Shown here one piece after another: positions 1,179 through 61,791 of a stretch of DNA of 64,000 nucleotides. The notes beneath the pieces were generated by a model that was not told where the DNA came from, did no database searches, and saw nothing but the letters and a program-made list of their open reading frames with translations. Both the position numbers and the translations under genes were made by a program. Position 1 is the stretch's first letter. The number at the start of each line of letters is the position of its first letter. The DNA is taken from positions 194,184,001 to 194,248,000 of the forward strand of contig OZ024743.1 in NCBI GenBank assembly GCA_964016885.1, read 5' to 3'. The stretch comes from Eledone cirrhosa (Eukaryota).

Positions 1179-1243
1179 ATATATATATATAATAACGCAC
1201 CAAAGTACTCAATACTTAGAATAGTAGAGTGGTCCTACTCGTT

Positions 1244-1283
<40 letters not shown>

Positions 1284-3347: not shown

Positions 3348-3745
3348 CTAACGTGAGGTATATTACTTGGTAAAGGAGGCGTCTATGTACATCGGTGGAG
3401 AACAAATATCAACAGTGGACTTCATTCGGAAAGCACCGGCTTTTACGGTTTTCTCGTTGTTTGCATCCTTTACCAATGTACATCAGTAACAGATCGACCC
3501 CCCCCCACACACACATGTATAACTCATTCCGCTCAGTATCTACTTACTAAATCACACCTACAAGGTATCAAGTTATTTTACAAACAAAAGCTATGGTAGA
3601 AGACCCTTGTTTCAAGCCAGGCATCTGCAAAGTGAATTCCTCAACTACGCAATCATGCCAGTCTAGAGCCAAAATATTGTCAACAGTTCAACACATTGTA
3701 TAAAACATGCTGGTCAATGAATGTCCTATCACCAGATATGGTGTT

Positions 3746-4452
3746 AATGTATAAGCTCTCCGAGAAATTATAACTCTTCTATCAATGCATAAGCTCTCTG
3801 AGAAAGTATAACTCTTCTATCAATGTATAAGCTCTCTGAGAAAGTATAACTCTTCTATCAATGTATAAGCTCTCTGAGAAAGTACAATTCTTCTATCAAT
3901 GTATAAGCTCTCTGAGAAAGTATAACTCTTCTATCAATGTATAAGCTCTCTGAGAAAGTATAACTCTTCTATCAGTGTATAAGCTCTCTGAGAAAGTATA
4001 ACTCTTCTATCAATGTATAAGCTCTACGAGAAAGTATAACTCTTCTATCAATGCATAAGCTCTCTGAGAAAGTATAACTCTTCTATCAATGTATAAGCTC
4101 TCTGAGAAAGTATAACTCTTCTATCAATGTATAAGCTCTCTGAGAAAGTATAACTCTTCTATCAATGTATAAGCTCTCTGAGAAAGTATAACTCTTCTAT
4201 CAATGTATAAGCTCTCTGAGAAAGTACAATTCTTCTATCAATGTATAAGCTCTCTGAGAAAGTATAACTCTTCTATCAATGTATAAGCTCTCTGAGAAAG
4301 TATAACTCTTCTATCAATGTATAAGCTCTCTGAGAAAGTATAACTCTTCTGTCAATGTATAAGCTCTCTGAGAAAGTATAACTCTTCTATTAATGTATAA
4401 GCTCTCTGAGAAAGAATAACTTTTCTACCAATGTATAAGCTCTCTGAGAAAG
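3746..4452. repeat. 38-bp minisatellite, ~18.5 copies
   Basis: Unit aatgtataagctctctgagaaagtataactcttctatc in head-to-tail array with no spacers. Confidence 0.97.
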
Positions 4453-4932
4453 TCAGTAAATTGTTTTCATAAATATTTAGTTCACATTTTAAAGATAAAG
4501 GATAGATACAAGAAATATTTGATAAAGTGGTAATAGAACATGTTGAACTTTTCACATAATTAGGCTCGATAATATTTTGCATACACAAGAGAAACATTCA
4601 ATGACTCAAAAGCAATAAAACTAGTTGTAGTAAACATTATCAAATGGTCCTCATTATTTCTTTTATCAATTTATTAGCATCAGTACGTTTAAAAAAAAAA
4701 ATCTTAATGATATTCTCATAATGCAGTTATTTTAGCTATAATCGCCTATTTAAGTGCCAGCTTGCTCTATGCTGATAAAAAAAAATATTTATTTGAACTT
4801 TGAACACAATTTTGGTTCATATGGTTGTTTTTTTAGAAGAAAACTTCAAGGCGCCATAAATTATTGGTTTGAGGAATGAAGTAAGAGAAAAGCAGAGTGG
4901 GGAGATAGAGAGAAGAAAGAGAAATATAGAGT

Positions 4933-5007
<75 letters not shown>

Positions 5008-6110
5008 AGAGAAATAGAGAGAATTGTGAGAGTGAGAAAGAATGAGAGAATGATGGGGTAGGGACAGAAAAAAATTACTGCAGCATAGAAATTTAGGTAA
5101 TTGAAGTTATGGAAAGAGTCACGGGAAATTTAAATATTTTTCCGACGAAGAAAAATTTGAGAAAAATGTTGATAACTGTAATGATATATTAGAACAAAAA
5201 ATTTAACTCATTATTCAATCAGGTCGTATCAAGCTTTTTCATCATTGTTATTTCTTATTTAGTAACAGAATATGAGAGAAAACAGTAGAGAGAATATACA
5301 CATCTGTTCGTTAATTTGAAATGTCTCCAATATAAATATCACCATGAATATTATGGGCTCCTCATTTCTTAACAATCTGCTTGTTAGTTAGTTATGTAAA
5401 CAGGAAGGAAGCTAGATTGGAATGGCCATTCTTGTGTTTATGTTTCTTTGATGAATTCATTGGTATTTTAAGACATCCTTGCTAACTGATATGGGATCTG
5501 AATAGAAATTCCACCTGAATAGAGGTTAAATTGCCTATTTCAAAATTCTCTGGAGGCAACTACATCAAAGCGGAGCCATATATAATGCATTTCTTTATTT
5601 GTACAATATTATATTAAGATCGATCGTTGGCTAGTTGTCAAGATTCCTACGATATTGAACTTTAAATAAACATTGAAGACACTAACGCAAATTAATAAAG
5701 TTATTTACGTTCTTTTATATTTCTCGAGAATGATGATGTGATATCTTTAAAGAATGATACATAAACATTTCATATATCTTGTGTAGTTATTATATCGAGA
5801 TATAGATAAAAATAGTTAGGAATCTACAAACACTGAACAATCATTTATATAACGATTAATAACGGGAAACTATGACAAAAAAGTAGAAAAGATTTTATCT
5901 CAATTAATAAATTGATAATTTAGTATTCACCGAAAAGAAATTTTTATTTATTTAACATTCACAAAAAAATAAATTTAATTCAGTATAATCAATTTTTCTT
6001 GAAAAAGCGATTTATTTCAGAATTTATATTTTAAAGAATGAATACAAATATATGTCCGAAATTAGGATATATAAAAAATAACAGTTCTGTGTAGCGAGTT
6101 AGCCGAATGA

Positions 6111-6230
6111 TTAAACTTTAATCTGTTATTTTAATAAATATTTGCTCTAGGGATCTTATATATTTGATATATATTTATCCTTGTCGAGCCCTCTTTGGAT
6201 TTTAGTCTTCACATTTATTATTATTACTAT
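6111..6230 (+). mobile_element. 3' part of the HHR-bearing pLTR family also at 32301-32450
   Basis: ttaaactttaatctgttattttaataaatatt...tcgagccctctttggattttagtcttca matches 32345-32450. Confidence 0.85.
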
Positions 6231-6339
6231 CCCGCCGAGGTTAACTTTGCCTTTCATCCTTACGGGGTCGATAAAATAAAGTACCAGTAATGTACTGGGT
6301 AATTGCTGGCCTTGTGCCAAACGTAGAAACAATTATTAC

Positions 6340-6340
<1 letters not shown>
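6231..6340 (+). mobile_element. SINE family A, 5'-truncated
   Basis: cccgccgaggttaactttgcctttcatccttacggggtcgataaaataaagtacc...agaaacaattatt. Confidence 0.9.
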
Positions 6341-6377
<37 letters not shown>

Positions 6378-7162
6378 AAATAACAGATTAAAGATTTTTT
6401 CAAGTATAATCTAGGCCAAACAAACACTAGCTAATTTAGCCTTCCCATTTTCAGACGTTAGGGGCGATTTGAGGGAGATTTACTTGTTATTTCTAACAGA
6501 ACCAGCGAATTTGTAAAGTCTCGGTGATTTCGTTCGTTTCTCTGATTTTGTAGGTTTGCGCCGAGACGAAAGAAATTATTATGTTAATTATAAGGAATTT
6601 AAAGTGATTAATGTGTAAAGGACACTCAAATCTCTTCCCTTAGAATGCCAAGAAGTATTGAAAAACTATTATACTGGAGCATTTAAACTCTGCAGAAACT
6701 GAGTTAATTTATGCTAGCGGTCGGTTTGTGGTGGGCGTGGTGTAGTGAAATCGTGTTTAGTTTTTAATGGCGCAGGAGGAATACAATAAGCTCCAGCAAC
6801 ATAAATGATGAATGAGAGATGATCTGTAGTCTGTAGTTTAGGTCAATAAATTAATAGAAGATTTGATGCGGTCAGTGATTAAGGCTAAATATTGTTTACA
6901 AAATTAAGAAATATCTGGCGTACACAACACGTGTAAAATAAAGAATGAGAAAGATAATGTGAGAAAGATAATGTGAGAAAGATGGAATTAACTGAATAGG
7001 CGAGCAGAAATGAGAAGGTATAGAGATAGAGATTTGTAAAGATAGAGAGGCAGTGTGGGAACAAAACTACAGACATTACAAACACATAGACAGACAATCA
7101 ATGACCATTTAGAATTCCCCTGGAATAACAAGATTAGTTATTTCTATACATTTCAGAAATCC

Positions 7163-8333: not shown

Positions 8334-8768
8334 TATAATATATATATATAAATATATGTGTGTGTGTATGTATGTATGTATGTGTGTGTGTGTTTGTGTG
8401 TGTGCGTGTGTATCTGTGTGTGTGTGTGTGTTGTTATAACTCACCATTTTGATACAGCGTAATTACTAAAAGAAGTATTAGACCTGAAAAAGTGATGTGA
8501 TATGATTGAGGAAATCCCTATAAGGTGGTGCTGCAGCATGTTCGCAGTCTACTGAATGAAACGACCGCAAGAATAAAAGAATATAAATGCACACACAAAT
8601 ATATGTCACTGGATATTTAGATCGATATCCAGTGATATACATGGGTCCCGACTATTTATAATATAACCATATTTTATTACCCCTAGCATCGAGTACTCTG
8701 GTGAGTAATGGTTTAACCAGTTTCAAACTGAATCCATCCTGATTTATATATATATGTATAATAATAAT

Positions 8769-8961: not shown

Positions 8962-9484
8962 TAATAATAATGCTGTGATATATATTTCAATGGCGACAGT
9001 GGTCACACTGTTCCGTGCGCCAGTGTTGCGACATCGTCAGAAAGCTTTTTACATAATAAGGTTATGTTTCTGAGGCAATCCAAATTGAATTGATACTCAC
9101 ACTCTCCCATCCCCACTGGCTTTCGACTGACAGCCACTGACGGGATAGGTAGCAGTAAGCTATATTACAGGCCTTGAATGGGTCATTGTTTGGCTGAGAG
9201 GGGGAACCGACTAAGCGAATTTCGTTGAAATCTGCGGTAGCTAATGGTCAACTTCCCACGGACCTGCGCCTGCGCAGACCAGTGGGGGTGAATTGGTACT
9301 CACTGGGGAATGGACGAAAAACCCAAGAGCACACACTTCGCCCGTTTCCATGTCGATTCAATTCGGATTGCCTCGGAAACATAACCTTATTATGTAACAA
9401 GCTGTCTGACGATGTCGCGACACTGGCGCACGGAACAGTGTGACCACTGTCGCCATTGAAATATATATCACAGCATTATTATTA
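8962..9484. mobile_element. Foldback element (arms ~8962-9092 and 9355-9484) with a degenerate HHR-like motif in each arm
   Basis: Arms are reverse complements; right arm reads CTGACGA-tgtcgcgacactggcgcac-GGAAC-agtgt. Confidence 0.75.
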
Positions 9485-10871: not shown

Positions 10872-10940
<69 letters not shown>

Positions 10941-11141
10941 ACGTACATACCTATATGTATACAGACGTACAGTAGTATGTATATTCATACATACATGCAC
11001 ACACATATATATATATATACATATGGGTTTACCGAACATTTATTATAATGCTCGGTTTGTTTGTAAACAAACAGCCCGAATTATTAGCCGTACAGTGTTC
11101 GGCAACCATTGTTGCCCTTTTGTTCAACACTGACAAAGGAA

Positions 11142-11182
11142 CGATGAACTAGTTTCGCGCTTATTGGCTGTCATCAGCACCG
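11142..11182 (-). ncRNA. Minimal type I hammerhead ribozyme
   Basis: cggtg-CTGATGA-cagc caata agcgc-GAAA-ctag-TT-catcg; stem I cggtg/catcg, palindromic stem III. Confidence 0.8.
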
Positions 11183-11906
11183 TATACTTTCCTGTCAGTC
11201 GATTGAACGTTTGAAAGTATATACTTTCCTTATGCATATTAACGGCTGAACAGCCTAATTTGCATATTGAGTGAGTTAGTTGGCCGGGCGTACCGAAAAC
11301 GATAAATATAAAAAATTAAATTTCATTTCTCACACTTAGTACGGCTGATACTTAAATATAATTATGTATATGTACATACATATATGTATACAGACGTACA
11401 GTAGTATGTATATTCATACATGCACACATATATATATGTACGTATGGGTTTACCGAACATTTATTATAATGCTCGGTTTGTTCGTAAACAAACAGCCCGA
11501 ATTATTAGCCGTACGGTTCATCGTTCCTTTGTCAGTGTTGAACAAAATCGCAACGATGGTTGCCGAACACTGTACGGCTAATAATTTGGAATGTTTGTTT
11601 ACAAACAAACCGATCATTATAATAAATGTTTGATAAACCCATACGTACATATATATATGTGTGCATGTATGTATGTATATATATACTACTGTACGTCTGT
11701 ATACATATATGTATCTACGTATACATACTTATATTTAAGTATCAGCCGCACTAAGAGTGAGAAATGCAATTTCATTTTTTCCATTTATCGTTTTCGGTAC
11801 GCCCGGCCGACTAACTCACTCGATATGCAAATTAGGCTGCTCAGCCGTTAATATGCATAAGGAAATTATATACTTCAAACGTTCAATCGACTGACAGGAG
11901 GGTATA

Positions 11907-11947
11907 CGGTGCTGATGACAGCTAATAAGCTAGAATCTAGTTCATCG
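11907..11947 (+). ncRNA. Hammerhead copy with GAAA>GAAT mutation
   Basis: cggtg-CTGATGA-c agct aata agct a-GAAT-ctag-TT-catcg. Confidence 0.7.
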
Positions 11948-12243
11948 TTCCTTTGTCAGTGTTGAACAAAAGGGCAACAATGGTTGCCGAACACTGTACG
12001 GCTAATAATTCGGGCTGTTTGTTTACAAACAAACCGAGCATTATAATAAATGTTCTGTAAACCCATACGTACATATATATGTGTGCATGTATGTATGTAT
12101 ATACATACTACTGTACGTCTGTATACATATAGGTATGTACGTATACATACTTATATTTAAGTATCAGCCGTACTAAGGGCCGAGACCATGTACATACACA
12201 CACAGACGCACATACACACACACACACAGACACACACACACGC

Positions 12244-12719: not shown

Positions 12720-13726
12720 TATTTATGTATATATATAATTTGTACAGATTAATAGTTTAAACAGAGAATCTAAATAATTAATATTCGTTCTACGCTTATA
12801 TATCTGTGTGTGTGTGTATGTATATATATGTATGTAAAAGAGTGATATGATATATTCTACTTCGTTAAGTTACAATGACTAAAATGAAAAACCTATGGAA
12901 ATAGTTAAGCAACTAAGATCGAAACCTAAACTCTCTAGTAGAAAAAAATTAATCTATAAACATAATTTGTTAGGCTTTTTCAGTATTGATAGTCATTAGT
13001 GTTATTTATTGGGTATTAGCAATCGATCCCGATAATATAGGAAATCACTTATGTAACAAACCGATAACATAAGTTAAAAATAATGAGTCGACATTTATTT
13101 CTTTCAACAAGTTTCACCATAGAGTATATCAGTCACGTTAATGAAAAAAACCCCCAAAAAACCACAACTACAACCAAACGTACGAATATCAGTTATCCAT
13201 TTTGCAAAACGAAAATGTAAATTGATATATTTAAATGGATGCTAAGAGGAAAAACAGCGTTGGTCACCCTTACTTTAAGGTTGTATAAATCAAAGTAACG
13301 ACTCGTATCACTTAGATATTACTAATGGAATTCAAATACACAAGTTTTACAGCTAAGTATAAATAGATTTGATTTTGTTCAATTAAGTCGAATTTTTATT
13401 CTGTTCATTGACTAGAAAATGACACTGAAATGGCTAACAAATCAGCAATAAAATGACTACAAGAGAACAGGTAAAAACATATTTAAGAACGTTAAGAGCA
13501 GAGGCTATTGATTGAAGCATTATAAATTCAAATTAAATAGCACCGTTAAAAAAGTATAGTAAGTAGTCGACAGATTATTGGTTTAAATATTTCTATCACT
13601 GGCAAACGTCTAGAAAGTGGTGCAATGTAAATGAACAAATATTTCAAAATATAAATATCTGTAAAATTAGAATATGACGCAAATGATTTCTTAACAAGGC
13701 AATATATATATATTTAATATAGACAA

Positions 13727-13775
13727 GCTTCTACAGGACTAGAACTGCTTCATTCGTGATAAATCATCAGGAAGC
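13727..13775 (-). ncRNA. Hammerhead copy (GAAA>GAAG)
   Basis: Reverse complement of the 14080-14128 motif with two substitutions. Confidence 0.7.
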
Positions 13776-14079
13776 TGCCTGTCCAAGTAAATATGGTGGT
13801 ATTTATATCTTTTCTGGTGGTAGGAGAGAGTGGGGATTGGGATGGGCGGAGGTCATTGGTTGATGGGTTTAAAGAAAAGGGAATTCTTTAAAAGCTAATT
13901 CTTTAAAGCTATAATTTATATTTGTCACTCTAAATATAAATCATAGCTTTAAGGAATCAGCTGTTAAAGAATTCCCTTTTCTTTAAACCCATCAACCAAT
14001 GACCTCCACCCATCCCAATCCCCACCTTCTCCTACCACCAGCAAATATATAAATACCACCATATTTACCTGGACAGTCA

Positions 14080-14128
14080 GCTTCCTGATGATTTCTCACG
14101 AATGAAACAGTTCTAGTCCTGTAGAAGC
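14080..14128 (+). ncRNA. Type I hammerhead ribozyme, canonical core
   Basis: gcttc-CTGATGA-t ttc tcac gaa t-GAAA-cag ttctagtc ctg-TA-gaagc; all three stems pair, GUA cleavage triplet. Confidence 0.88.
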
Positions 14129-14259
14129 TTTTCTATATTAAACATTTATACTCTGCTATGTATTGAGTACCTTATTTACTGTGGTTACCCCCGATTGAAC
14201 CCGGAATAACTTATATATATATATATATATATATATATCTTTTTTACATATATACATAC

Positions 14260-17223: not shown

Positions 17224-18964
17224 GTCGAATAATAATAATATTTGCTTCGTTTGCAAGCAAACAGCCTCATTACGCTATGTTTTTTAGATAACTGTTCTAG
17301 ATTTATTTACTGTTGATTTTAAGGCGGCTTCTCTCGTCTAAAACACATAGCGTAATGAGGTTCTTTGCTTGCAAACGAACCAAATATTTTTATTATTCGA
17401 TACAAAACTCATGAATGGAATTCCCACAATATACTGGACTAAATAAATCGACTTACAGAATTGATGTCCTGCTGAAGGAATAAATTCTATTATATACGTT
17501 ATCTTGCTGAATATAACATTGTCTATATCTGTTAAAAAGACGAAAGGTTCATTTTGCGGTTCATAATATAGTGTAGCGACACAAAAATAATATATTTCAC
17601 AGATAATATTGCGTAACAGGAACATCAACTGAAGTGGCAAAACTAAGAATAACAAAAGTAACGCTTCAACATAATTTCGTATTTCGTAATGTTTGGGAAC
17701 AGGATATACATATAACAGAAAAATCTAGAAAAGTCTTTAAATGGTTTTGTTAAGTTTAAATGTGGTTCCTGTAATGGATTCTCCATAAAATCCTTATTCT
17801 TTGAAAGCGATCGTGCACAAAGGAAGATAGCATTAAGAAAACTTTTCACTGATCCCAAACTGTAATCTTGTATTTACCCAGCATGATGCCATCGCTGTGG
17901 CGGCTGACTGATACTTAATGACAGAAACGGTTGATTACAAGACCAACCTGAATATTCCCGACTCACATTTATTCTAATACTACTATTTATCTCTTACATG
18001 TACTAAATAGTGGCCTTCGAAATTACCTCCTGGAAAGAAGAAAAACAAACAACGAAAGGGAATTTTCTGCTTTTGCATTTCACAGCAAGTAGAACGTAAT
18101 AGGTTAGTAAAAGAAGCCAAACATTTAGAGTCAAAAAGAATTCTTTGTGTAAGTAGCGTTGCAGGATTCTAAACTGTAGGGCGCCAAAGTAACTTTTATT
18201 CAATTGAAAGATACATTAATGTAAGGTAGCGTGGTTAATGTATAAAAACGTAATGAATTCTTAATGGTAAGAAATATAATGACATAGCTAAAAGAACACG
18301 AAACGATAATGAGAACTCACGTATTAAATAAAATAAAATAAAAAGAATGGAAAACAAACAACCAACCGAACCATATAATAAAACGATGTCTTCCTTTCCA
18401 ATACGTGTTGTTATGTTTGTTTCTTCTGTAACAGAACATTTCTCTTCTGAATCTTTTGTGCAAGTATTATGTAAACGTAATATATTTGTCCATTTTATCG
18501 TCTTGACCAGTTTTTTCTAACATTAAAAAAGCAATATCGCCAGCAGACAATATGCAAATTACTGTTCATTTATGTTAAACATAGGATTAGAAAATTATTC
18601 ACTGAAGAGTTTAACTATTTGATGTTCATACTATTCTCAAAGACAGCTCTGTAAAATAAATCAAACGGCACGACTCAAGGATTGATCCCTGATCTAAAAT
18701 ACTCGCTATAACTTAAAGATATCAACAACGAAGGTCTTTTGACTATACACGATTTAATCTTTTGAAGAGAAAGGATTTGTAACCCATTTAATCATCTATA
18801 ATTTGTTTCCGGAACTTACTTGAAAATTGCTATTTATTTTAAGGACATTGAACTGGTGAACTGACATGATAGAGTTGGAGATAATAGAATTCGCAAAGTG
18901 ATGCATTAACATTCACGTAGGAAACACAACATTGATTTTGGTTCTTAGAAAAAGAAAATTGGGA

Positions 18965-19847: not shown

Positions 19848-20364
19848 TATTATGAATATAAATTCCAAGAAACTTGGAGTCGAAATGAATCGGAATAACA
19901 TTTGTTATTATAGAATGTGCAATGTAAATAAAAATTGCATATAACACAATGTTTATTATTGTTAAATTCAACATGATATATAAATAAATAAGCCTGTTTT
20001 TTTATGGAATTGGGTGTTGGTTCTAGAAGTACTGCAGTAATATTGCCATCTTGTAATGAAAGAAATGGTAATAAACAACAAACCAGGTAGTTCCTAAGAT
20101 TTCGATTTAGCCTGTAATTGGCTACAGCAAAACATGGCATTTATGGTACAATAATTTCCTCTCCTTTGCTCTATGCAAAATATTAATAATGAATAAGAAA
20201 ACAAGCGAAAAATAAAGAAACAACAATAATGTTTATAATGAATACTTTTACAGAAGTAACATATTCTTATATGTAGTTAAAAGTCAGTTATATATCCACA
20301 TTTAACACCCCGTACACATACATACACACACACTCACACACGCTTGTATACATATATATATATA

Positions 20365-20543
20365 TACAACGAAGGAAATGTGGTAAGGAACCAGGTGGAC
20401 CATAACGCACCAAAGTACTCAATACTTAAGGTAGTAGAGTGGGTAATAGGAACGAGTAGGACCCCGACAGCTGAGCTCAAGCCGTTTCGCCGGCTAAGCC
20501 GTCGAAACGGCTTGAGCTCAGCCGTCGGGGTCCTACTCGTTCA
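20365..20543. mobile_element. pLTR fragment with hairpin containing the 3' half of an HHR; family copies at 1191-1245, 44384-44483, 45374-45396 and 57768-57897
   Basis: aacgagtaggaccccgac...tttcg pairs with cgaaa...gtcggggtcctactcgtt; cggc taa gccg-tc-GAAA-cggc ttgagctca gccg-TC-gggg. Confidence 0.8.
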
Positions 20544-20566
20544 TATATATATATATATATATATAT

Positions 20567-32071: not shown

Positions 32072-32079
<8 letters not shown>

Positions 32080-32450
32080 TAAAATAACAGATTCAAGTTT
32101 AAGCAAAGAATCGCTGCTTTCACCCTTAACGGGATCTTCTGAAACTAACAAAGTCAATCTGTAAACGCAGAAGTGGATATTTAAAATAACGTTGCAACCG
32201 GAGGAAGACAGGAAGACGATACTTTGTTTCGTGGAAACGTTCCCTCCGGTTGCAACGTTTTTTGAAATATCCACTTCTGCGTTTACAGATTGACTTTGTT
32301 AGTTTCAGAAGATCCCGTTAAGGGTGAAAGCACCGATTCTTTGCTTAAACTTTAATCTGTTATTTTAATAAATATTTTCTCTACGGTTCTATATATTTAT
32401 CCTTATCGAGCCCTCTTTGGATTTTAGTCTTCAAATTTATTATTATTACT
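32072..32450. mobile_element. Foldback pLTR (arms 32072-32204 and 32243-32375) with HHRs in both arms
   Basis: Arms are reverse complements; flanked by TA tracts. Confidence 0.88.
32301..32351 (+). ncRNA. Hammerhead motif, CAGAAGA core variant (mirror copy 32096-32146, minus)
   Basis: agttt-CAGAAGA-tccc gttaa gggt-GAAA-gca ccgattctt tgc-TT-aaact. Confidence 0.75.
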
Positions 32451-32600
32451 ATATATATAAGTAGAAGGGGTATTTAATTTGTTGGAAATCCGACAAATAT
32501 AAATATTTATAACTGATTAAAAGCACTCAATAAATTACTGGAGTAAATTATCAATGATATTAAATAAATGGTAACTATATTTATAAAAGCATATTTATTT

Positions 32601-33234: not shown

Positions 33235-33698
33235 TATATATCATAAAACATGTCTATAGAATCACAAGATAAAATATATACCATTTCCTCTCCCAATTAG
33301 CATAATTAACTATATAAAAAATCGAATAGACCAGGCTATAAGAATGAGGCTTCTATGAAGAAATCTCTAACAAATAACCGAAATTAGCCCTTCGCGTCGG
33401 CCACAACGGAATATTTATCGAATATTTCGACAGCGTAATCGCCCAGATACAGTCAACTAAACAGAATTCTGTTTAGTTGACTGTATCTGGGCGATTACGC
33501 TGTCGAAATATTCGATAAATATTCCGTTGTGGCCGACGCGAAGGGCTAATTTCGGTTATTTGTTAGAGATTTCTTCATAGAAGCCTCATTCTTATAGCCT
33601 GGTCTATTCGATTTTTTATATAGTTAATTATGCTAATTGGGAGAGGAAATGGTATATATTTTATCTTGTGATTCTATAGACATGTTTTATGATATATA
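33235..33698. repeat. Spacerless 464-bp palindrome
   Basis: Centre GAATTC at 33464-33469; no arm mismatch found by eye. Confidence 0.95.
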
Positions 33699-33871
33699 TA
33701 TATATATATGGGAGGAGGTTATAGTTCACTTGAAGCATTGTGTAATGAGGTATAAACGTTAGAATATGTGTAATAAGGCCAAGACAATGCAGATATGGAC
33801 ATAGAAAAAAGAATGCAATAGTGAGAGATATTGATGAGAATTCGTCTTTCACCTTGAATTTATTTAAATGT

Positions 33872-33906
33872 CCTTAATTTTCGAGATAATATCTCTTCTT
33901 CGGAGG
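33872..33906 (-). ncRNA. Minimal HHR variant (CCGAAGA) in the pLTR; second copy 37007-37041
   Basis: cct-CCGAAGA-a gagat att atctc-GAAA-at-TA-agg. Confidence 0.6.
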
Positions 33907-34290
33907 GAAGTAAAAGTCTCAGACCAGCGTCTTAAATTTCCAATGAAGCCATGCTGACCGGAAATAGTATACAGTTCTAACTTTAAAATCAAAGAATTAA
34001 AATTAGGTGGGTAAAGAGTAGTCTCCCTTTAAGAGGGGTTTGTTTATGTTTTTGTTGTATTTTTTAAATTTTATATGCGTGCCTGTATATGTGTGTGGGA
34101 GAAAGCATGAAGGTGTAGGTATGTGGGTGTGTGTGTGTGTGAGTGTGGGAAGATAGGTCTAATCGTAAAAGTGGGGGGTAGGTGTTATCTGGTGTTAGAA
34201 CTGGTTTTGTGTGTGTATGTGTGAGAGAGAATAAGTGGAGGTGTGCGCGTGCGTGTGTGTGGGGTGTGTAAAGTGGGGCTAGAGGCCCTA

Positions 34291-36873
34291 TCAGGTTATA
34301 AATTGGGTGTTGAGCTCTAGTCTATTACTGATTGGTGGATGTGTTCTATCTATAATGAGTGCTTCCTTGATTCTAAGATTGCCGAGGTTTCTTTCTTTAG
34401 TTTCTATCCTAACTGTTATGTTTTTATCAGTGTTTTTGCATTTAACTAGGTGTTTCTTAAATGAGGAAGCGTTAGTATTGAGGTGTTCTTTTATTCTTAT
34501 GTGGAGTGGTCTGGTGGTGCTACCTACGTAGAAGTTGTTGCATTTGTCACACTCTAGTCTGTAAACTACGTAAGCCTGGTGGCATAGGTCTGTGTCGTTG
34601 ATGGGGCAGTTGGCTAGTCTGCAGCAGTTGTCATGTCTGGTGGAGCGTCTCTTAGCTAGCCGTCCACGCAAAGAAGGACCCGAATGGGCCAGTTGAATAT
34701 CCAGACCTTCTCGTCTGATGGCTCTGCGGATGGCTGTTGTTGTTTCTTCACTGAAGTGTGGGAGCTTCAGGAAGCAAGTGTTAGTGCCTCGGGTGTGGTG
34801 TCCTCTGTTCTTTCTGGCACGGTTTGTGGTGGATGTCGTGTATCCGTTCAGTTTGAGTACTTCCAGGAAATGTGTGGTGTGTGTGTCTCGGTCTCTGGCG
34901 TCGGTGCATTTGTTCTTGATACGTGCCAGTTCGTTCTTTATGTATCCGAACTTGGCACCGAGTGGGAGGTCCGATCTGAAATGTACGAACAGGTCCCTGC
35001 TGGCGGATTTTTTATAGAAGCAGGTGTGGATGTTGCCTTCCTCTGTTACCCTGAGTTGGAAGTCCAGCAGGGATAGGGATCCGCGGTCATCGGGGTGTTC
35101 TATGCTGAACTTTATACTGGCGTCCATGCTGGAGAATGTTGTGTATATTTTCTCTGCCTCTTCACGGGATGATGTAAGGATGAGTATGTCATCTACATAT
35201 CGGGTGAAGAAGGCATGGGAATGGCAGGTGTTGAGGGCTCGGCATTCTAGCTGGTTCATGTAAGTGATGGCCAGCAGGCCAGAGAGGCTGGATCCCATGG
35301 GTAATCCTGTTGTCTGTCTGTATGTGTGGTGGTGGAAGGTGAAGTACGTGTTGTCTACTGTGAAGGACAAAAGTTGGTGTATGTCCGTCGGGTGGAGGCC
35401 GTAGCAGTGGATGTTCTCTGCGACCACGCAGTCCGTCAATAAATCGACAGCTGGGTGAGCGGGGACTGTAGTGTAGAGGGAGACAACGTCGAGGCTAAAA
35501 GCGTATTTGTTAAGTTTAAGTTGTTCTGGCTGGAGTTGGTGTAATCTACGTATAACTTCGTCGGAGCTACTGACATGTCCGGGGAAGGTGGAGAGTAGAG
35601 GCTTGAGGACCTGGGAGAGAAGCCAGGAAATTTTGTATAGGGGTCCTTCTATGCTAGAGACGATGGGTCTTATATGCGTCTTAGTGCTATTCTTGTGGGT
35701 CTTGATGAGGTGGTAGAAAGTGGGCAGTCTGCTATTTCTAGTGGTGTAGTTGAGTTTAATTTTATTCGGGAGTTGTCTTCTCCTACAGATATCGAACCAA
35801 ATGGAGTTGGTCTGTTTTTCGATTTGGGCTGCGGTCATGTCCGGGATCACTGTGTACAGTTCACTGTCGCTTAGGTGTTCGAAGGCTAGGTTATTGTATG
35901 TGGCTTGAGAGATGACGCAGAACTCTTTACCTTTGTCGGATGGTAAGTAAATAAGTTCCTTATTCCGTAGGTTCTTCAGGGCGAGTTGTTGTGTCCTGGA
36001 GAGGTTAGGGGCCATCTTCTTCTGTTTCCGTAAGATGTTAAATACGGAATGTTTTAGTCTCGAGAGTTTTTCTTCCAGCTCGCGGTTGGCGGGCGGTGGA
36101 TAGAGTGGGCGATCTAGTTGGTATATCGGGAATCTGGGTGTGGTGGATTCCGTGGTGTTGTTGTCGAGAGTCGATATCCATTTCAGTTGGTAGGCAGTCC
36201 GACAGAAATTCGTTTCTATGTCGAGCCATAGTCTGTCGTCCAGTCTCTGTTTCAATATGAACTTGGGACCCAGGCTGAGGAGGTCTAATTCCTCTCGGGA
36301 GAGGGATCCTGTCAAGTCTGTGACGAGGTGTTTTGCGTCAGGTGTGTTGTTGGTCGGGGTGCCGCTAGGTTCGGTGTTGGTAACGTATTGTTCGCCTCTG
36401 TTGGTGTTTGGCGTTGGGATGTTGTTAAGACAGTTGGCCGTCCTGAGTTTGAGAAATTTTTGCGTTAGGCGTATTTTCTCGTAGTCTCGGCGGTGGTGGT
36501 ATGAGCTGTCTATAGTGGCGGAGATGACCTTGGACAGAGGTTCTGGGGTTTCAGCGAGTTGTGGTACAAGGCTGGAGATAGTCCGTATGTGATGTTGTAG
36601 CGTGCGGTGTAGGTGTTGTATGAGTTTTCTTAGGCAGAATTTTTGTATGTAACTGAGTGATCGTTTGAGGCCTGGTGAATTGAAGCATGTTGGTAGGTGT
36701 ACATTTTTGATGGTTTTGGGAATGATGTTGTTATTCAGGCATCGTTTTAGGAAATTTATTTGGCAGCCGGCTTTGGCGCGCTTTTCAGATAGCTGGAAGA
36801 GTTTCTTTACAGTTGTGAACTGGGCCTGGCTCAGGCGTAATGAAAGGGGGAGGTTATAGTTCACTTGAAGCAT
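34291..36873 (-). CDS. PLE reverse transcriptase-GIY-YIG endonuclease (~860 aa from first ATG; frame open to 36987)
   Basis: PSDKG, IKTHK, IRPIVS, SLDVVSLYT, GLPMGS, RYVDD, VVY..C..C..YVGST..L..RIKEH, EALII. Confidence 0.95.
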   Translation of the reverse strand: MLQVNYNLPLSLRLSQAQFTTVKKLFQLSEKRAKAGCQINFLKRCLNNNIIPKTIKNVHLPTCFNSPGLKRSLSYIQKFCLRKLIQHLHRTLQHHIRTISSLVPQLAETPEPLSKVISATIDSSYHHRRDYEKIRLTQKFLKLRTANCLNNIPTPNTNRGEQYVTNTEPSGTPTNNTPDAKHLVTDLTGSLSREELDLLSLGPKFILKQRLDDRLWLDIETNFCRTAYQLKWISTLDNNTTESTTPRFPIYQLDRPLYPPPANRELEEKLSRLKHSVFNILRKQKKMAPNLSRTQQLALKNLRNKELIYLPSDKGKEFCVISQATYNNLAFEHLSDSELYTVIPDMTAAQIEKQTNSIWFDICRRRQLPNKIKLNYTTRNSRLPTFYHLIKTHKNSTKTHIRPIVSSIEGPLYKISWLLSQVLKPLLSTFPGHVSSSDEVIRRLHQLQPEQLKLNKYAFSLDVVSLYTTVPAHPAVDLLTDCVVAENIHCYGLHPTDIHQLLSFTVDNTYFTFHHHTYRQTTGLPMGSSLSGLLAITYMNQLECRALNTCHSHAFFTRYVDDILILTSSREEAEKIYTTFSSMDASIKFSIEHPDDRGSLSLLDFQLRVTEEGNIHTCFYKKSASRDLFVHFRSDLPLGAKFGYIKNELARIKNKCTDARDRDTHTTHFLEVLKLNGYTTSTTNRARKNRGHHTRGTNTCFLKLPHFSEETTTAIRRAIRREGLDIQLAHSGPSLRGRLAKRRSTRHDNCCRLANCPINDTDLCHQAYVVYRLECDKCNNFYVGSTTRPLHIRIKEHLNTNASSFKKHLVKCKNTDKNITVRIETKERNLGNLRIKEALIIDRTHPPISNRLELNTQFIT

Positions 36874-37432
36874 TGTGTGATGAGGTATAAACGTTAGAAT
36901 ATGTGTAATAAGGCCAAGACAATGCAGATATGGACATAGAAAAAAGAATGCAATAGTGAGAGATATTGATGAGAATTCGTCTTTCACCTTGAATTTATTT
37001 AAATGTCCTTAATTTTCGAGATAATATCTCTTCTTCGGAGGGAAGTAAAAGTCTCAGACCAGCGTCTTAAATTTCCAATGAAGCCATGCTGACCGGAAAT
37101 AGTATACAGTTCTAGCTTTAAAATCAAAGAATTAAAATTAGGTGGGTAAAGAGTAGTCTCCCTTTAAGAGGGGTTTGTTTATGTTTTTGTTGTATTTTTT
37201 AAATTTTATATGCGTGCCTGTATATGTGTGTGGGAGAAAGCATGAAGGTGTAGGTATGTGGGTGTGTGTGTGTACATACATAATATGGTTTACCTTTTGT
37301 GGTAGGGTGTATATCGTAGTTAGGACTCAATGTAATCCGTTAGCAAGTAATTCAGAGAGACCCAGAGATATATTCTGAGTCAATCCTTTAGATACAGAGC
37401 CTGATATATTAGATATTAGTTTAACAATGATA

Positions 37433-37898: not shown

Positions 37899-38038
37899 TC
37901 CACAATAATAATAATGAAGGCAAGTTGTTTTACATATTCATTTCATTGTTTTACGATCGCTTCGGAGCGTTGATCATACTGATATATTGACTGAATTATT
38001 GACTGATCTATAGCAGTTAGAAAACTGTATACTATCAG

Positions 38039-38109
38039 GCATAATATATTGGTTCGATCATACTGTCTTCTTCTGAAGAAGACAGTATGATCGAACCTAT
38101 ATATTATGC
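38039..38109. repeat. 71-bp hairpin containing a degenerate HHR core
   Basis: ggttcgatcatactgtcttcttc-t-gaagaagacagtatgatcgaacc; includes CTGAAGA-agac agtat gatc-GAAc. Confidence 0.8.
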
Positions 38110-38154
38110 TTTATGTATTATAACTTTTATATTTTGTAATATTAGTCTTAAGTG

Positions 38155-39625: not shown

Positions 39626-39869
39626 TAATCTTTCACACTAGTCAGCATTAAGTAGTCGGTAAAAAAATTGGAAAATGCAATGCGAGTGAAATCCATTGGA
39701 GAGAACTTTCAGACAATTAATTAGTATAAACAAACACGCCATATTGTACATTTATACACATTACATACACATACAAATATATATATATATAAAGAAAAAA
39801 AGATGAAATCGAAAATGTAACTGGAGTCTTATTTTAAAAAAAATATTTATTATTTGGTTCCTTATTTAT

Positions 39870-40517
39870 TTGGTACGAAAACAGAAACAAAATCAAGGTA
39901 CGTCCAATATTCTATCATATATCTCAACACACAACCCAAGAAATGCAGAAGCTTACAACACTATTCACAAGAACATCCCACTACTAAAACAAAACCCAAG
40001 AATGAAAAAAGCCCTTGAAACACACAAAATAATCAAAAGCAAAAGACAACCGAAATCACTGAAAACATTACTCACCAATGCCAAATTACCTACCACAAAC
40101 CCACAACCAACTGTCAAAAAATGTGGTCGCTCTAATTGTGGAACCTGCACTCACTTCATTGAAGGCAACACGTATACATTTAAATCAGGACAACATTTTA
40201 CTGTAAAAAATCACTTCACTTGCTCATCAAAAAATCTGATTTATGCCATTAAATGTAAAGGATGCAATGAAGATTATATAGGACAAACTAAACTCACACT
40301 CAGAAACAGAATGACAGTTCATCGCCAACAATTACGAGATCCAACCACGAGACAGATACCACTAAGCGCATATCTAGACATATGCGCAAGTAATAAGACA
40401 CCCAAATTCCAAGTCTTCCCATTTTACCTTTGCGCTAACAATACAACAGAACAAATACGAATAAATAAGGAAAATATGTTTATTCAAAAATATAGACCAG
40501 CATTAAATATGGTTTAA
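39870..40517 (+). pseudogene. PLE C-terminal fragment: Cys-rich linker plus GIY-YIG endonuclease (Neptune-like)
   Basis: KCGRSNCGTC, FTCSSKNLIYAIKCKGC..YIGQT...RNRMTVH, E..FI....PALN. Confidence 0.9.
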
Positions 40518-41997: not shown

Positions 41998-42033
41998 CTT
42001 TTGAAAAGCTGAAGAACTGCGAAACCGGTAAAG
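41998..42033 (+). ncRNA. Minimal HHR, U3-A8 variant
   Basis: ctt-TTGAAAA-gctg aagaa ctgc-GAAA-ccgg-TA-aag. Confidence 0.7.
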
Positions 42034-42195
42034 GAACCAAATAAATATATATATTTAAAAAAAAAAAAAGGAACCAAATAAATATATATATATTTTTTAA
42101 AAATAATACTCCAGTTGCATTTGCAATTTCATCTTTTTTCTTTATACTTTCACTCGTGTAGGACACCTCGGTTATTTTTCATTTTGTAAAAAAAA

Positions 42196-44301: not shown

Positions 44302-44483
44302 CATAGAATTTTATTTTCCTTATAAAGCGTGAACAAGATTTGTGTGCCTCTGTTTTGTTTCCTTGAAATATATATAGATATATAACGAAGGAAGTGTGGT
44401 AAGGAACCAGGTGAACCATAACGCACCAGATTACTCAATACTTAGGGCAGTATAGTGGGTAATAGAAAAATGTTCAAGACCCC

Positions 44484-45367
44484 ATAGTTCAGGAATATTG
44501 AGGACAAACGGGACACCAAATTCATCCAGTTCGACATAGAGAGCTATTACGCCTCTATTACCCTACCGCTCCCTACGGCCGCTTTGGACTTTGCCAAAAC
44601 ACTTACACCCATCACCGACCAAGAAAGAAACATCATTTTCCACGCCAGGAAGACAGTCCTCCTCTTCGACAACTCCAATTGGATAGAGAGAGCTCTCGAC
44701 TCCCCCTTCGACGTCAGTATGGGCGCGACTGACTCGGCGGAGTTGAGGATTATTCCTATTACATAAACTCACCGAAATGTTTCCTGCATTTGGCGGTGGA
44801 TTGTAACGAGACGATGGGTTCCTTACTCTCAAAGGGTACAACCCCAGTAGTACAGACCGCGGCGGTAAACACCTAATCAACTTCGTCCGGGACTGGGGAT
44901 TTAAAATCACCCTACAGATCTTCCTAACCCAAGTCAATTTCCTGGACGTTACCCTCAACCTCGAAAATGATCTGTATTACCCATACAGGAAACCAAACGA
45001 CAACCTTCACTAAACCCACCGCCGCTCTAATCATCCTAGAAACATCACCAATAACCTGGTTAAAAACATCTCCCTCCGCATATCTCGTTTGTCCGCTAAT
45101 GAGCAGATATTCGATGAACATGCGCCTTATTACAATCAGGCCCTCAAGCGAAGCGGCTTTCAGGAGGAAATTTCATTTTACCCAGCTTCCCCTAGCGGAA
45201 CCAAGAGGCGACGCCGCCGCTCACGACACGCAACGTGGTTCAACCTCCCCACAATGCCGAGGTTGCAACACCAATTGGGAAAATCTTGTTTAGGCTCCTC
45301 GAAAAACATTTTCCACCACAACACCACTACCATAACATAATCAACAAAAACACTATCAAACTTTCCT
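44484..45367 (+). pseudogene. Decayed PLE RT, Naiad-like
   Basis: FIQFDIESYYASI, FDVSMGATDSAE, GL*RDDG, VNFLDVTLNL, YYPYRKPND, TWFNLP, with frameshifts. Confidence 0.85.
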
Positions 45368-45736
45368 AAAGGAGGGGTCTTGAACATTTTCCTATTTATA
45401 TATATTTATTTATTTATTCAATGAAGTTAAGTTGGTTGATTGAAAATCTGCCTACTTTTTCATAACAGATGACTCAACGGTTTATGTTTATCCGGAGGTT
45501 TATTAAAATAATAAATAAGAAAGAAGAGTGTATCATTCGATCATCCCTGTTTATTTTATTAAACATTTTTCGAAGAATTATGCCATTTGTATAACATCTG
45601 CCGCACGCGTTCTCTTCAGACAAGAAAACACGTAGGGCAGATGCTATACAAATGGCATACGTGTTCGAAATACGTATAATAAAATAAATAGGGATGGACA
45701 AATGATACCGTCTTTTTTGTTTATTATTATTTTGTT

Positions 45737-45915: not shown

Positions 45916-45964
45916 TATTAATGATAATAATAATAATAATAATAATAATATATATATATATATA

Positions 45965-46459
45965 TGAGTATAGACATAGAATATTCGAAAATATTCTGTA
46001 TGTTTATAATAAACATTTTGAAGACCTAATCGCTATAGAATAGAATACGTCACGTATTACAATTAGATTCTCGATAAAAGCAAGGGAAGTAATCTACGCG
46101 TTTCATATACTCACATATATATCGCTATTTCAGAGCATTTATTCCAATTTCTAATTTCTGCCGGACCGGCAACCGCTCTTTCAAACCAGTTCCAGTACAC
46201 AGCTAAGTATTCTATAAGTCTCTAGCTGTGTCATTCTCGATAAAAGCACTGGATATGTAGTCCTGATGAATTCTAACAAGAATGAAACGCGTAGATTACT
46301 TCCCTTGCTTTTATCGAGAATCTAATTGTAATACGTGACGTATTCTATTCTATAGCGATTAGGTCTTCAAAATGTTTATTATAAACATACAGAATATTTT
46401 CGAATATTCTATGTCTATACTCACATATATATCGCTATTTCAGAGCATTTATTCCAATA
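45965..46459 (+). mobile_element. Retrozyme-like element: 310-bp unit, terminal direct repeat, 142-bp 5' inverted copy
   Basis: 46106-46149 = 46416-46459; 45965-46106 is the reverse complement of 46282-46423. Confidence 0.9.
46257..46299 (+). ncRNA. Minimal type I hammerhead ribozyme, canonical core
   Basis: gtagtc-CTGATGA-attct aaca agaat-GAAA-cgcg-TA-gattac. Confidence 0.9.
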
Positions 46460-46502
46460 TATATATATATTTATATACACATATATATTTGTTTGTATGT
46501 GT

Positions 46503-50692: not shown

Positions 50693-50893
50693 GATAGAGT
50701 AAGACACGCTTCGCATCGGCTCCGCTATTCCATCGGGATTTACCCTTACTATTGTAAGTACCGGATAAAATTTTTAGTGCAACACATTTGGAACACTAAC
50801 CCCTGTTATTTAGGGAAACATTTTTGCATTTACCCCCTTTTTAGGGGGTAAAATAAATATCTATTTTTGCCGAAAAATTTCTTTCTTGGCAGC

Positions 50894-52582: not shown

Positions 52583-52735
52583 CACAACTCCAAATACCCC
52601 AACCCCACCACACACGTGTACCCCCACACCACCACAAAACATCCCTCCACCCAACACACCTGATGCCATGGAAATTACGCAACCCGGAGAGGTAAGTGCT
52701 TTTCTTTCTTCACTTTCAACACCAAAATAGATCAA

Positions 52736-57400: not shown

Positions 57401-57893
57401 CAGAGGGCATATATATATATATGTGTGTGTGTGAGTGTGTGTGTATCAAGCATAGCGAAGACGAATCTACCTTTGTTTTCAATATATATATATATATTGT
57501 TTTTTGTACGTGAGTCTACATGTGTAAAGACATATCTGAGTAGCTTCACTTCCAACGTCAGGAATTGACATAATCGATCGTCCCTCGAGCTGATCGGCAG
57601 TGAAACATATGTGATTAAATATGTATATGATGCAACACTGATTCTTTGTTCCCAATTATTATTAAAAATACTCTGCTCCCCAATAACATCGAGTGCTCAT
57701 GCTGGTTTACTGCCTGTGAACGCAATCTGATTGCATGTTTAATATATATATATATATATAGGAAAAGCGTCGAAGCAGCCGGAGCTCAGCCGTCGGCGTC
57801 CTAACTCCTTTTCTATTACCCACTCTATTACCCTAAGTATTGAGTACACTGGTGCGTTATGGTCCACCTGGTATCTTACCACACACTCTTTGT

Positions 57894-57940
<47 letters not shown>

Positions 57941-61368: not shown

Positions 61369-61421
<53 letters not shown>

Positions 61422-61520
61422 TTGGTGCTGTGAAATAGCGATATATATATGAATGTATATATAGTGTATTTTGCAATACACTGTATGTTTAATTAAAAGC
61501 ATTTCGAAGATCTTAGGCTT

Positions 61521-61791
61521 TTGTTTTAGAGTAGTGACAGTCTCACTTACTTTAAATTTTCAGCAAACAGGGGAGATAAAGCTGACAGAGCGCTGTTTCG
61601 TACTTTTTGGTACTTATCAAAGCTAAGTACTCCACCTGTTTGCTGAAAATCATGGATGTTTGATTCTTATAGAATTCTAGTAATAATCAGGAACTGATTA
61701 TACAGAGCGAACGAAAGAGAGCTCTGTCAGCTTTATCTCCCCTGTTTGCTGAAAATTTAAAGTAGGTGAGACTGTCACTACTCTAAAACAA
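61521..61791. mobile_element. Foldback pLTR (arms 61521-61600 and 61711-61791)
   Basis: Arms are reverse complements; HHR overlaps the left arm. Confidence 0.85.
61580..61624 (-). ncRNA. Hammerhead, U3-A8 variant
   Basis: agct-TTGATAA-gtac caaaaa gtac-GAAA-cag cgct ctg-TC-agct. Confidence 0.78.

What the first reader, a model, noticed from the sequence alone, without database searches (positions are those of the whole stretch)
6111..6230. Insertion junctions coincide with predicted ribozyme cleavage sites
Seen: the 6111 copy begins TT^aaact, the cut site of the 32301 HHR. The plus block at 11516 begins GTT^catcg. Copies at 44483 (minus) and 45374 (plus) begin ggggtc, matching GTC^ggggtc at ~20527. 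The 39874 inverted copy starts about 4 nt after GTA^ of the 41998 HHR. Inference: the reverse-transcribed RNAs had HHR-generated 5' ends, a genomic footprint of in vivo cleavage, including by the CAGAAGA and U3-A8 variants.
Basis: partly seen in the sequence, partly recalled or inferred. Interest (0 to 1): 0.75.

Follow-up and report, generated by a model that had tools for sequence, protein, structure and literature searches.

The report
Hammerhead cut scars in Penelope insertions
A minority of the broken copies of Penelope-like jumping genes in this animal DNA begin at or within three letters of the spot where their hammerhead RNA motif is predicted to cut itself, which likely records occasional cutting in the living cell, but most copies begin elsewhere.

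Summary
Of its five junctions, 44483 and 45374 start exactly at the inferred cut (only half of that hammerhead is in the window). 6111 and 11516 carry 2-3 letters from before the cut, and 39874 is 5 nt past it. Counting all 31 5' junctions I could place in 12 hammerhead-bearing families, 7 lie within 3 nt of the cut (1.4-2.1 expected, p 0.005-0.012). Public reads laid on the CAGAAGA family show only a 4% depth step at the cut, though 2 of 9 listed non-hairpin joints sit there. The 424-nt family gave no clean peak. Best reading: ordinary Penelope-like and retrozyme insertions, a few of them copied from ribozyme-cut RNA. Pausing at the helices and chance remain open. Cutting by the U3-A8 variant is not supported; by CAGAAGA it is only hinted. 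The scan found this same few-percent footprint before on other DNA. In print, hammerhead function in these elements is still called unclear.

The parts
6111..6230 (+). Family F1 tail copy; 5' junction at -2..0 of the predicted cut (first base after cut = 6113); ends at a SINE copy and (TA)n
6378..6395 (-).
   Evidence: (E 2e-5 including TA tract)
32301..32351 (+). F1 hammerhead-like motif: helix I 32301-05/32347-51, core CAGAAGA 32306-12 (U4A variant), GAAA 32326-29, predicted cut 32346/32347
32072..32452 (.). F1 head-to-head insertion; both arms contain the whole motif (5' ends about -104 and -128); 3' ends at +29 and +106
11516..12177 (+). F2 block of about 1.56 units of a 424-nt repeat; starts at -3..-1 of the cut and runs through one intact motif (core 11912, cut 11942/11943)
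10924..11517 (-). F2 inverted block (about 1.4 units), 5' end at +50; motif core 11177
20347..20546 (.). F3 fold-back copy holding only the 3' half of a hammerhead (GAAA, helix III, GTC; cuts before 20527 on + and 20465 on -); both 5' ends about -30
44368..44483 (-). F3-type tail beginning exactly at GGGGTC (offset 0)
44484..45368 (+). Broken Penelope-like RT fragment between the two cut-start pieces
   Evidence: RT motifs read by eye across frames; the one frame piece sent to Pfam had no hit
45374..45396 (+). F3-type 23-nt stub beginning exactly at GGGGTC (offset 0), after 5 nt that I cannot assign
1192..1248 (.). Tiny F3 head-to-head copy; + arm starts at +2..+4, - arm at +23
57768..57915 (+). 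F3 copy starting about -30
39788..39874 (-). F4 inverted tail starting at +5; contains an inner AAGGAACC start at 39863 (offset 0..+1)
39876..40517 (+). F4 5'-truncated ORF end with GIY-YIG domain
   Evidence: PF01541, E 8e-8
41998..42033 (+). F4 U3-A8 minimal motif: TTGAAAA 42001-07, GAAA 42021-24, palindromic helix III, cut 42030/42031; helix I 3 bp only
42068..42146 (+). Second F4 tail unit restarting at the cut register (-1..+2, A-run ambiguity)
61580..61624 (-). F6 U3-A8 motif (TTGATAA at 61620, first base after cut 61583); its junctions are at -18 and about -130, not at the cut
46257..46299 (+). F5 canonical motif in a 310-nt unit; junctions at -12 and -187
33711..37300 (-). Near full-length Penelope-like element (905-aa RT + GIY-YIG frame, two 428-nt pLTRs 99.3% alike, CCGAAGA motif in each); 5' end about -265 to -290

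Best explanation
These are ordinary 5'-truncated, often head-to-head insertions of Penelope-like elements and their non-coding derivatives, in which a minority of copies start at the predicted hammerhead cut, likely because the RT sometimes used the short 3' product of ribozyme cleavage as its template. Shown: the element anatomy, the motifs, the junction positions and the modest excess at the cut. Inferred: the element's endonuclease nicks (TA)n; RT starts at one of the fixed internal tail sites; on a cut RNA it runs off the 5' end at offset 0, then either joins the other arm or flank (0-3 nt of chance homology or untemplated bases) or jumps to another, uncut RNA. A jump would give tail-ORF chimeras (45374) and tail stutters (42068). 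Most insertions come from uncut RNA, so cleavage is optional, not a required step.
For: 7 of 31 hand-placed junctions lie within 3 nt of the cut against 1.4-2.1 expected (p 0.005-0.012), and 5 include offset 0 (p 0.004-0.007). After merging fold-back twins and the 44483/45374 pair it is 6 of 25 (p 0.001-0.006). A common-offset scan peaks at -1..+3. Four families with unrelated sequence contribute. Both outer pieces of the 44368-45396 insertion start on the same base with no upstream match. In two other individuals' reads, 2 of the 9 listed joints outside the family's own hairpin fall at the cut (32347 exactly, short side 29 nt = cut to main 3' end; 32345 with 5 nt ambiguity), in both runs (15 of 108 joints shown). 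Read variation fits the F2 fold and so its cut register: N7 (11916) and N17 (11942, U/A) vary, and changes on both sides of one helix I pair (11909 G>T, 11945 T>G) occur at similar frequency. Precedent: R2 5' junctions follow the ribozyme cut and vary by chance microhomology (PMC3774820, abstract).
Against: 24 of 31 junctions are elsewhere. Junctions were placed by hand and not blind. F1 reads: depth rises only 3.9% and 4.4% across the cut, against rises of 135-253 reads in the two preceding bins, and no loose end at the cut is among the 6 shown per run. F2 reads: no step in + mates and no listed loose end at the cut. 6111 and 11516 keep pre-cut letters, which fits an uncut template better. 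The F3 cut is inferred from half a motif in a sister subfamily. F4 helix I is 3 bp. Minimum-energy folds do not favour the hammerhead shape (z -1.2 to +1.5), and no Rfam hammerhead reached threshold. In the anole element cleavage is dispensable in vitro and no RNA-seq reads began or ended at the cut (PMC11167929).
Confidence: 0.55

Rival explanations
1. RT pauses or the RNA breaks at the hammerhead's helices without catalysis. Stops at the base of helix III give -1..-3, stops at the 3' strand of helix I give about +5, stops in helix II give about -30. Microhomology then makes the join.
For: 6111 (-2) and 11516 (-3..-1) include pre-cut letters; 39874 is at +5; 5 junctions cluster near -30. The listed read joints spread over the whole motif, 32301-32356. 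Earlier scan notes report pile-ups at the motif's front edge in other genomes (untested here).
Against: 44483, 45374, 39863 and the read joint at 32347 start at exactly 0 with no upstream match. Helix III is only 1-4 bp and the folds are weak.
Confidence: 0.25
2. Chance plus selection: the window holds dozens of truncated copies crowded near the 3' end, where the motif lies, and the reader listed the hits.
For: 3 of 26 once the five picks are removed (p 0.16-0.26); no clear step in reads; GGGGTC occurs 23 times in the window, many of them in a SINE.
Against: The full count, misses included, still gives p about 0.005-0.01.
Confidence: 0.15
3. Cleavage is real, but the joins were made in RNA: a ligase joined the 5'-OH cut end to another RNA end (or closed a circle) before reverse transcription.
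For: Clean offset-0 joins to ORF sequence at 45374; the F2 block is longer than one unit and crosses an intact cut site; retrozyme RNAs are circularised, most likely by tRNA ligases (PMC7229834, abstract).
Against: The 44483 and 11516 joins are inversions, which RNA ligation of sense strands cannot make. The 5 unassigned nt at 45369-45373 suit a DNA-level jump.
Confidence: 0.1

Closest known systems
Minimal type I hammerheads in pLTRs of metazoan Penelope-like elements (Cervera and De la Pena 2014, PMC4209133; parts 1-2 of 4 read)
   Same: Motif in the 3' repeat, short or palindromic helix III, U3-A8 core variant, mostly single motifs in truncated copies, pairs on opposite strands 100-700 bp apart.
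   Different: That paper says in vivo evidence is absent and, in the parts read, maps no junctions to the cut. A CAGAAGA (U4A) core is not named in the parts read.
EN+ Penelope-like insertion structure (Craig et al. 2021, PMC8557442, passages; Arkhipova et al. 2013, PMC3846280, passages; Frangieh et al. 2024, PMC11167929, parts 1-2 of 4)
   Same: 5' truncation, adjacent inverted copy, (TA)n targets, two fixed 3' ends, microhomology at 5' junctions.
   Different: Hammerhead function is called unclear (Craig), and cleavage dispensable in vitro with no RNA ends at the cut (Frangieh). Here a minority of DNA junctions sit at the cut.
R2 and Perere-3 LINEs whose 5' end is set by a self-cleaving ribozyme (PMC3774820, abstract; PMC8501958, passages)
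   Same: Idea that the ribozyme cut leaves a mark at the genomic 5' junction, blurred by chance microhomology.
   Different: There the ribozyme is at the 5' end and defines full-length copies as a rule. Here the motif is near the 3' end, the cut-start pieces are short tails, and they are a minority.
Metazoan non-LTR retrozymes (PMC7229834, passages; bioRxiv 10.64898/2026.07.22.740005, parts 1-2 of 5)
   Same: F2 (424 nt) and F5 (310 nt) are non-coding hammerhead units inserted as more than one unit.
   Different: No two complete consecutive motifs on one strand in this window; circular RNA not tested.

Membership tests
PLE minimal hammerhead | Core C3UGANGA9 / GAAA with NUH triplet | tested here: inconclusive
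   Canonical in F2 (11177 copy) and F5; U4A in F1; U3-A8 in F4 and F6; only the GAAA/NUH half present for F3. The top four scan scores (11-13.5, five motifs) compare with about 0.8 hits per shuffled window at score 11 or more, so single motifs are not proven by pattern alone.
PLE minimal hammerhead | Helix I closing around the cut | tested here: met
   F1 5 bp, F2 6 bp with changes on both sides of one pair in reads, F5 6 bp; F4 only 3 bp; F3 not testable
PLE minimal hammerhead | Short or palindromic helix III allowing dimers | tested here: met
   Palindromic in F2, F4, F5, F9; 3-4 bp hairpin in F1, F3, F6
PLE minimal hammerhead | Match to an Rfam hammerhead model at threshold | tested here: not met
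   No hit above threshold (best Hammerhead_3 E 5.3). Minimal forms are not expected to score well (own knowledge).
PLE minimal hammerhead | Self-cleavage activity | not testable with these tools
   No assay; no RNA holder listed
EN+ Penelope-like element | RT plus C-terminal GIY-YIG ORF linked to the motif-bearing repeat | tested here: met
   F9 905 aa RVT_1 + GIY-YIG between pLTRs; F4 GIY-YIG. F3 RT fragment by eye only. F1 and F2 have no ORF in the window.
EN+ Penelope-like element | Head-to-head inverted 5'-truncated copy, (TA)n target, two fixed 3' ends | tested here: met
   F1 3' ends at 32375 and 32452 in reads
Non-LTR retrozyme | At least two consecutive tandem units each with a complete motif | tested here: not met
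   F2 blocks are about 1.56 and 1.4 units with one motif each; F5 about 1.15 units
Non-LTR retrozyme | Abundant linear and circular unit RNA | not testable with these tools
   No RNA holder listed
R2-type ribozyme-defined 5' end | 5' junctions map to the cut as a rule | tested here: not met
   7 of 31 in the window; about 4% depth step in F1 reads

The most novel reading that the evidence does not exclude
Penelope hammerheads, including the non-canonical CAGAAGA and U3-A8 cores, cut in the germ line. The freed short 3' tail, which holds the RT start sites, is itself a template on which RT starts and from whose cut 5' end it jumps to other RNAs. The ribozyme would thus make a portable priming module that builds the tail-ORF chimeras, stutters and inverted arms of these elements, and junction histograms would give a DNA read-out of ribozyme activity for every core variant.
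Probability: 0.25. Interest if true: 0.75.

Novelty: new variant of a known kind. Interest (0 to 1): 0.42.

Why it matters
What the hammerhead does in endonuclease-bearing Penelope elements is an open question: it is called unclear in PMC8557442, and it is dispensable in vitro with no matching RNA ends in PMC11167929. A junction spike at the cut would be cheap genome-only evidence of cleavage in vivo and would let core variants be ranked by activity. The evidence here limits that role to a minor route. The elements themselves are ordinary, and this scan has already noted the same footprint in other genomes.

Tried and rejected
No whole genome is held, so the genome-wide histogram could not be run. 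Pattern scans for F1, F2 and F3 tails in metagenome and viral contigs found 0 matches. No RNA holder listed. Rfam gave only microsatellite and hairpin noise. The large depth rise near 32300 looks like a pile-up at the motif's front edge, but I did not accept it: 1405 and 1609 molecules end at a library site at 32437, and with 150-nt reads and a common 12-nt insertion their other ends fall near 32300; 534 and 408 loose ends at 32295 are a diverged subfamily. The step of about 4,100 reads near 11946 (- mates) has no listed loose end or molecule start and matches in number a diverged subfamily; I read it as a probable read-length shadow, unresolved. A possible ninth near-cut copy at 8643 (+1, 70% identity) and a 10-nt inverted piece at 6075-6084 (+10) were left out of the count as too weak. 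The 39863 start was not counted apart from 42068, since both may be one ancestral duplication. Palindromes at 1246-1898, 17225-17400 and 33235-33698 were left out for lack of a placeable motif. Sequence look-ups of F1 and F3 in earlier findings gave nothing. Lunse et al. (PMC5785218), on activity of core variants, is not held; I saw only its citation.

Full report
Setting. The window is AT-rich animal DNA with (TA)n tracts and many copies of one SINE. It is crowded with Penelope-like elements (PLEs): a 905-aa RT + GIY-YIG frame between two 428-nt repeats at 33711-37300, a GIY-YIG end at 39876-40517 and RT fragments, plus about a dozen head-to-head remnants. A descriptor scan finds hammerhead-like motifs in 12 families (F3, F7 and F12 placed by eye). 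No Rfam hammerhead model reaches threshold, and minimum-energy folds are unremarkable, so the motifs rest on core letters, helices, position in PLE tails and, for F2, read variation.

6111 matches the F1 tail from -2. 11516 matches F2 from -3; two of those letters are shared with the inverted block, and the third, T, is the pre-cut letter of this locus, while most reads have A there, so an exact cut start needs one untemplated T. 44483 and 45374 both start at 0 with no upstream match; they are the two outer pieces of one insertion around an RT fragment, but their cut is inferred from a half motif at 20497-20526 in a sister subfamily. 39874 starts at +5.

The full count. I placed 31 5' junctions by hand in the 12 families. 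Within 3 nt of the cut: 6113, 6395, 11519, 44483, 45374, 1231 and 42068 (7 of 31). The rest lie at +5, +23, +50, +86, -12, -18, five near -30, two near -60, and -100 to -2150. Sliding a false cut independently in each family gives 1.4 (range -100..+60) or 2.1 (range -50..+25) expected, p 0.005 and 0.012. For ranges including 0 the count is 5, p 0.004-0.007. Merging fold-back twins and the 44483/45374 pair gives 6 of 25, p 0.001-0.006. Limits: calls were not blind; copies that start at or after the cut can be seen only when a sibling with the motif is in the window; very short copies are missed.

Outside the window. No genome is held. One run search listed 17 runs, none on record as RNA. On F1 (32203-32455) I laid two contig sets of one sample and two RAD libraries (13,292 and 13,532 reads). 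The cut falls on a bin edge. Summed depth rises by 294 (3.9%) and 331 (4.4%) there, after rises of 135/217 and 183/253 in the two bins before, so at most a few percent of alignable copies start at the cut. No loose end at the cut is among the 24 shown (897 hidden). But the main 3' end is only 29 nt past the cut, so cut-to-end copies mostly cannot align, and RAD samples loci unevenly. Of 15 joints shown (93 hidden), 6 are the family's own hairpin; 2 of the other 9 are at the cut, in both libraries: 32347 exactly, with a 29-nt short side, and 32345 with 5 nt of ambiguity. Others lie at 32301-32340. CAGAAGA appears to be the family's majority core: no change at 32306-32312 is among the 40 best-supported shown (180 hidden), though 32335-32370 shows none either. 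On F2 (11838-12047; 24,989 reads, 2,828 contigs) diverged subfamilies dominate. + mates show no step at the cut (7874, 7972, 8075). - mates step up near +3/+4 without a listed loose end; I leave that unresolved. The variation does fit the fold: N7 and N17 vary and one helix I pair changes on both sides.

Mechanism. Shown: anatomy, motifs, junctions and a modest excess at the cut. From published work: PLE protein nicks AT-rich DNA on both strands and starts RT at two internal tail sites (PMC11167929, parts 1-2 of 4). Inferred: when the motif has cut, the 3' product still carries those start sites, so RT copies it to its 5' end and then joins or jumps. That explains 44483 and 45374 (same start base twice in one insertion), the 42068 stutter, and F2's block that starts at one cut site and crosses an intact one. 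Most copies cross an intact motif or stop elsewhere, so uncut RNA is the usual template, in line with the in vitro result. I put this at 0.55, structural pausing at 0.25, chance at 0.15 and RNA-level ligation at 0.1. For the variants: F1 has two window cases and two read joints near the cut, a hint. U3-A8 has one duplication at the cut in F4, one junction at +5, and none in F6, so it is not supported.

What is known. Minimal PLE hammerheads, U3-A8 included, and the proposal that they process the RNA are in PMC4209133 (parts 1-2 of 4). PMC8557442 (passages) calls their function unclear. PMC11167929 found no RNA reads ending at the cut; its supplementary figures are not held as text (no occurrences), and its Fig. 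S2 on genomic ends may bear on this claim. Ribozyme-defined 5' junctions are established for R2 (PMC3774820, abstract) and proposed for Perere-3 (PMC8501958, passages). I also saw passages of PMC7229834, PMC3846280, PMC6431247 and PMC6765202 and parts 1-2 of 5 of bioRxiv 10.64898/2026.07.22.740005. Five searches listed no paper that maps PLE junctions to the hammerhead cut; subscription papers are largely outside the library. Earlier notes of this scan report the same thing on other DNA: a few percent of copies at the cut, a mildly favoured site, or pile-ups at the motif's front edge. They are unchecked leads, not independent support.

Verdict. Real but overstated: a minor footprint, likely of in vivo cleavage, on ordinary elements. 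It touches an open question and is directly testable with the assembly, but this window and two read tests cannot settle it. Interest 0.42.

Noticed in passing
window 33711-37300 (-): Near full-length, probably young Penelope-like element: open 905-aa RT + GIY-YIG frame, pLTRs 99.3% alike, CCGAAGA motif in each. A good subject for a full-length junction histogram.
   Followed up: partly
window 33235-33698: Perfect 464-bp palindrome (100% identity) next to that element; no motif placed. Very recent fold-back insertion or assembly artefact.
   Followed up: no
window 20496, 57768, 38074: Five 5' ends in two families cluster near -30, inside helix II or at the core, a second preferred zone beside the cut.
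   Followed up: partly
window 45956-46460 and 61385-61791: F5 (canonical core) and F6 (U3-A8 core) share a 79% alike 3' tail under different motifs, so core type can switch within one lineage.
   Followed up: no
window 32181-32262: F1 has a conserved internal inverted repeat upstream of the motif; many reads join its two arms.
   Followed up: no
window 8962-9484, 13705-14150, 45505-45733, 38029-38118: Further head-to-head remnants with motifs (CTGACGA, CTGATGA, CTGAAGA) whose two arms start at nearly the same offset, suggesting fold-back rather than two independent starts.
   Followed up: partly
window 50852-56164 (+): Two-ORF LINE with endonuclease, RT and zf-RVT (1166-aa frame), apparently intact.
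   Followed up: no
window 3742-4453: 38/76-bp tandem array, about 96% alike units.
   Followed up: no
window 8607-8760: Short hairpin resembling F5 upstream sequence followed by a diverged F3-like tail starting near +1; possible chimera.
   Followed up: no
window 6229-6358 and about 12 other places: One SINE family of about 190 bp, often 5' truncated and in (TA)n or next to PLE remnants.
   Followed up: no
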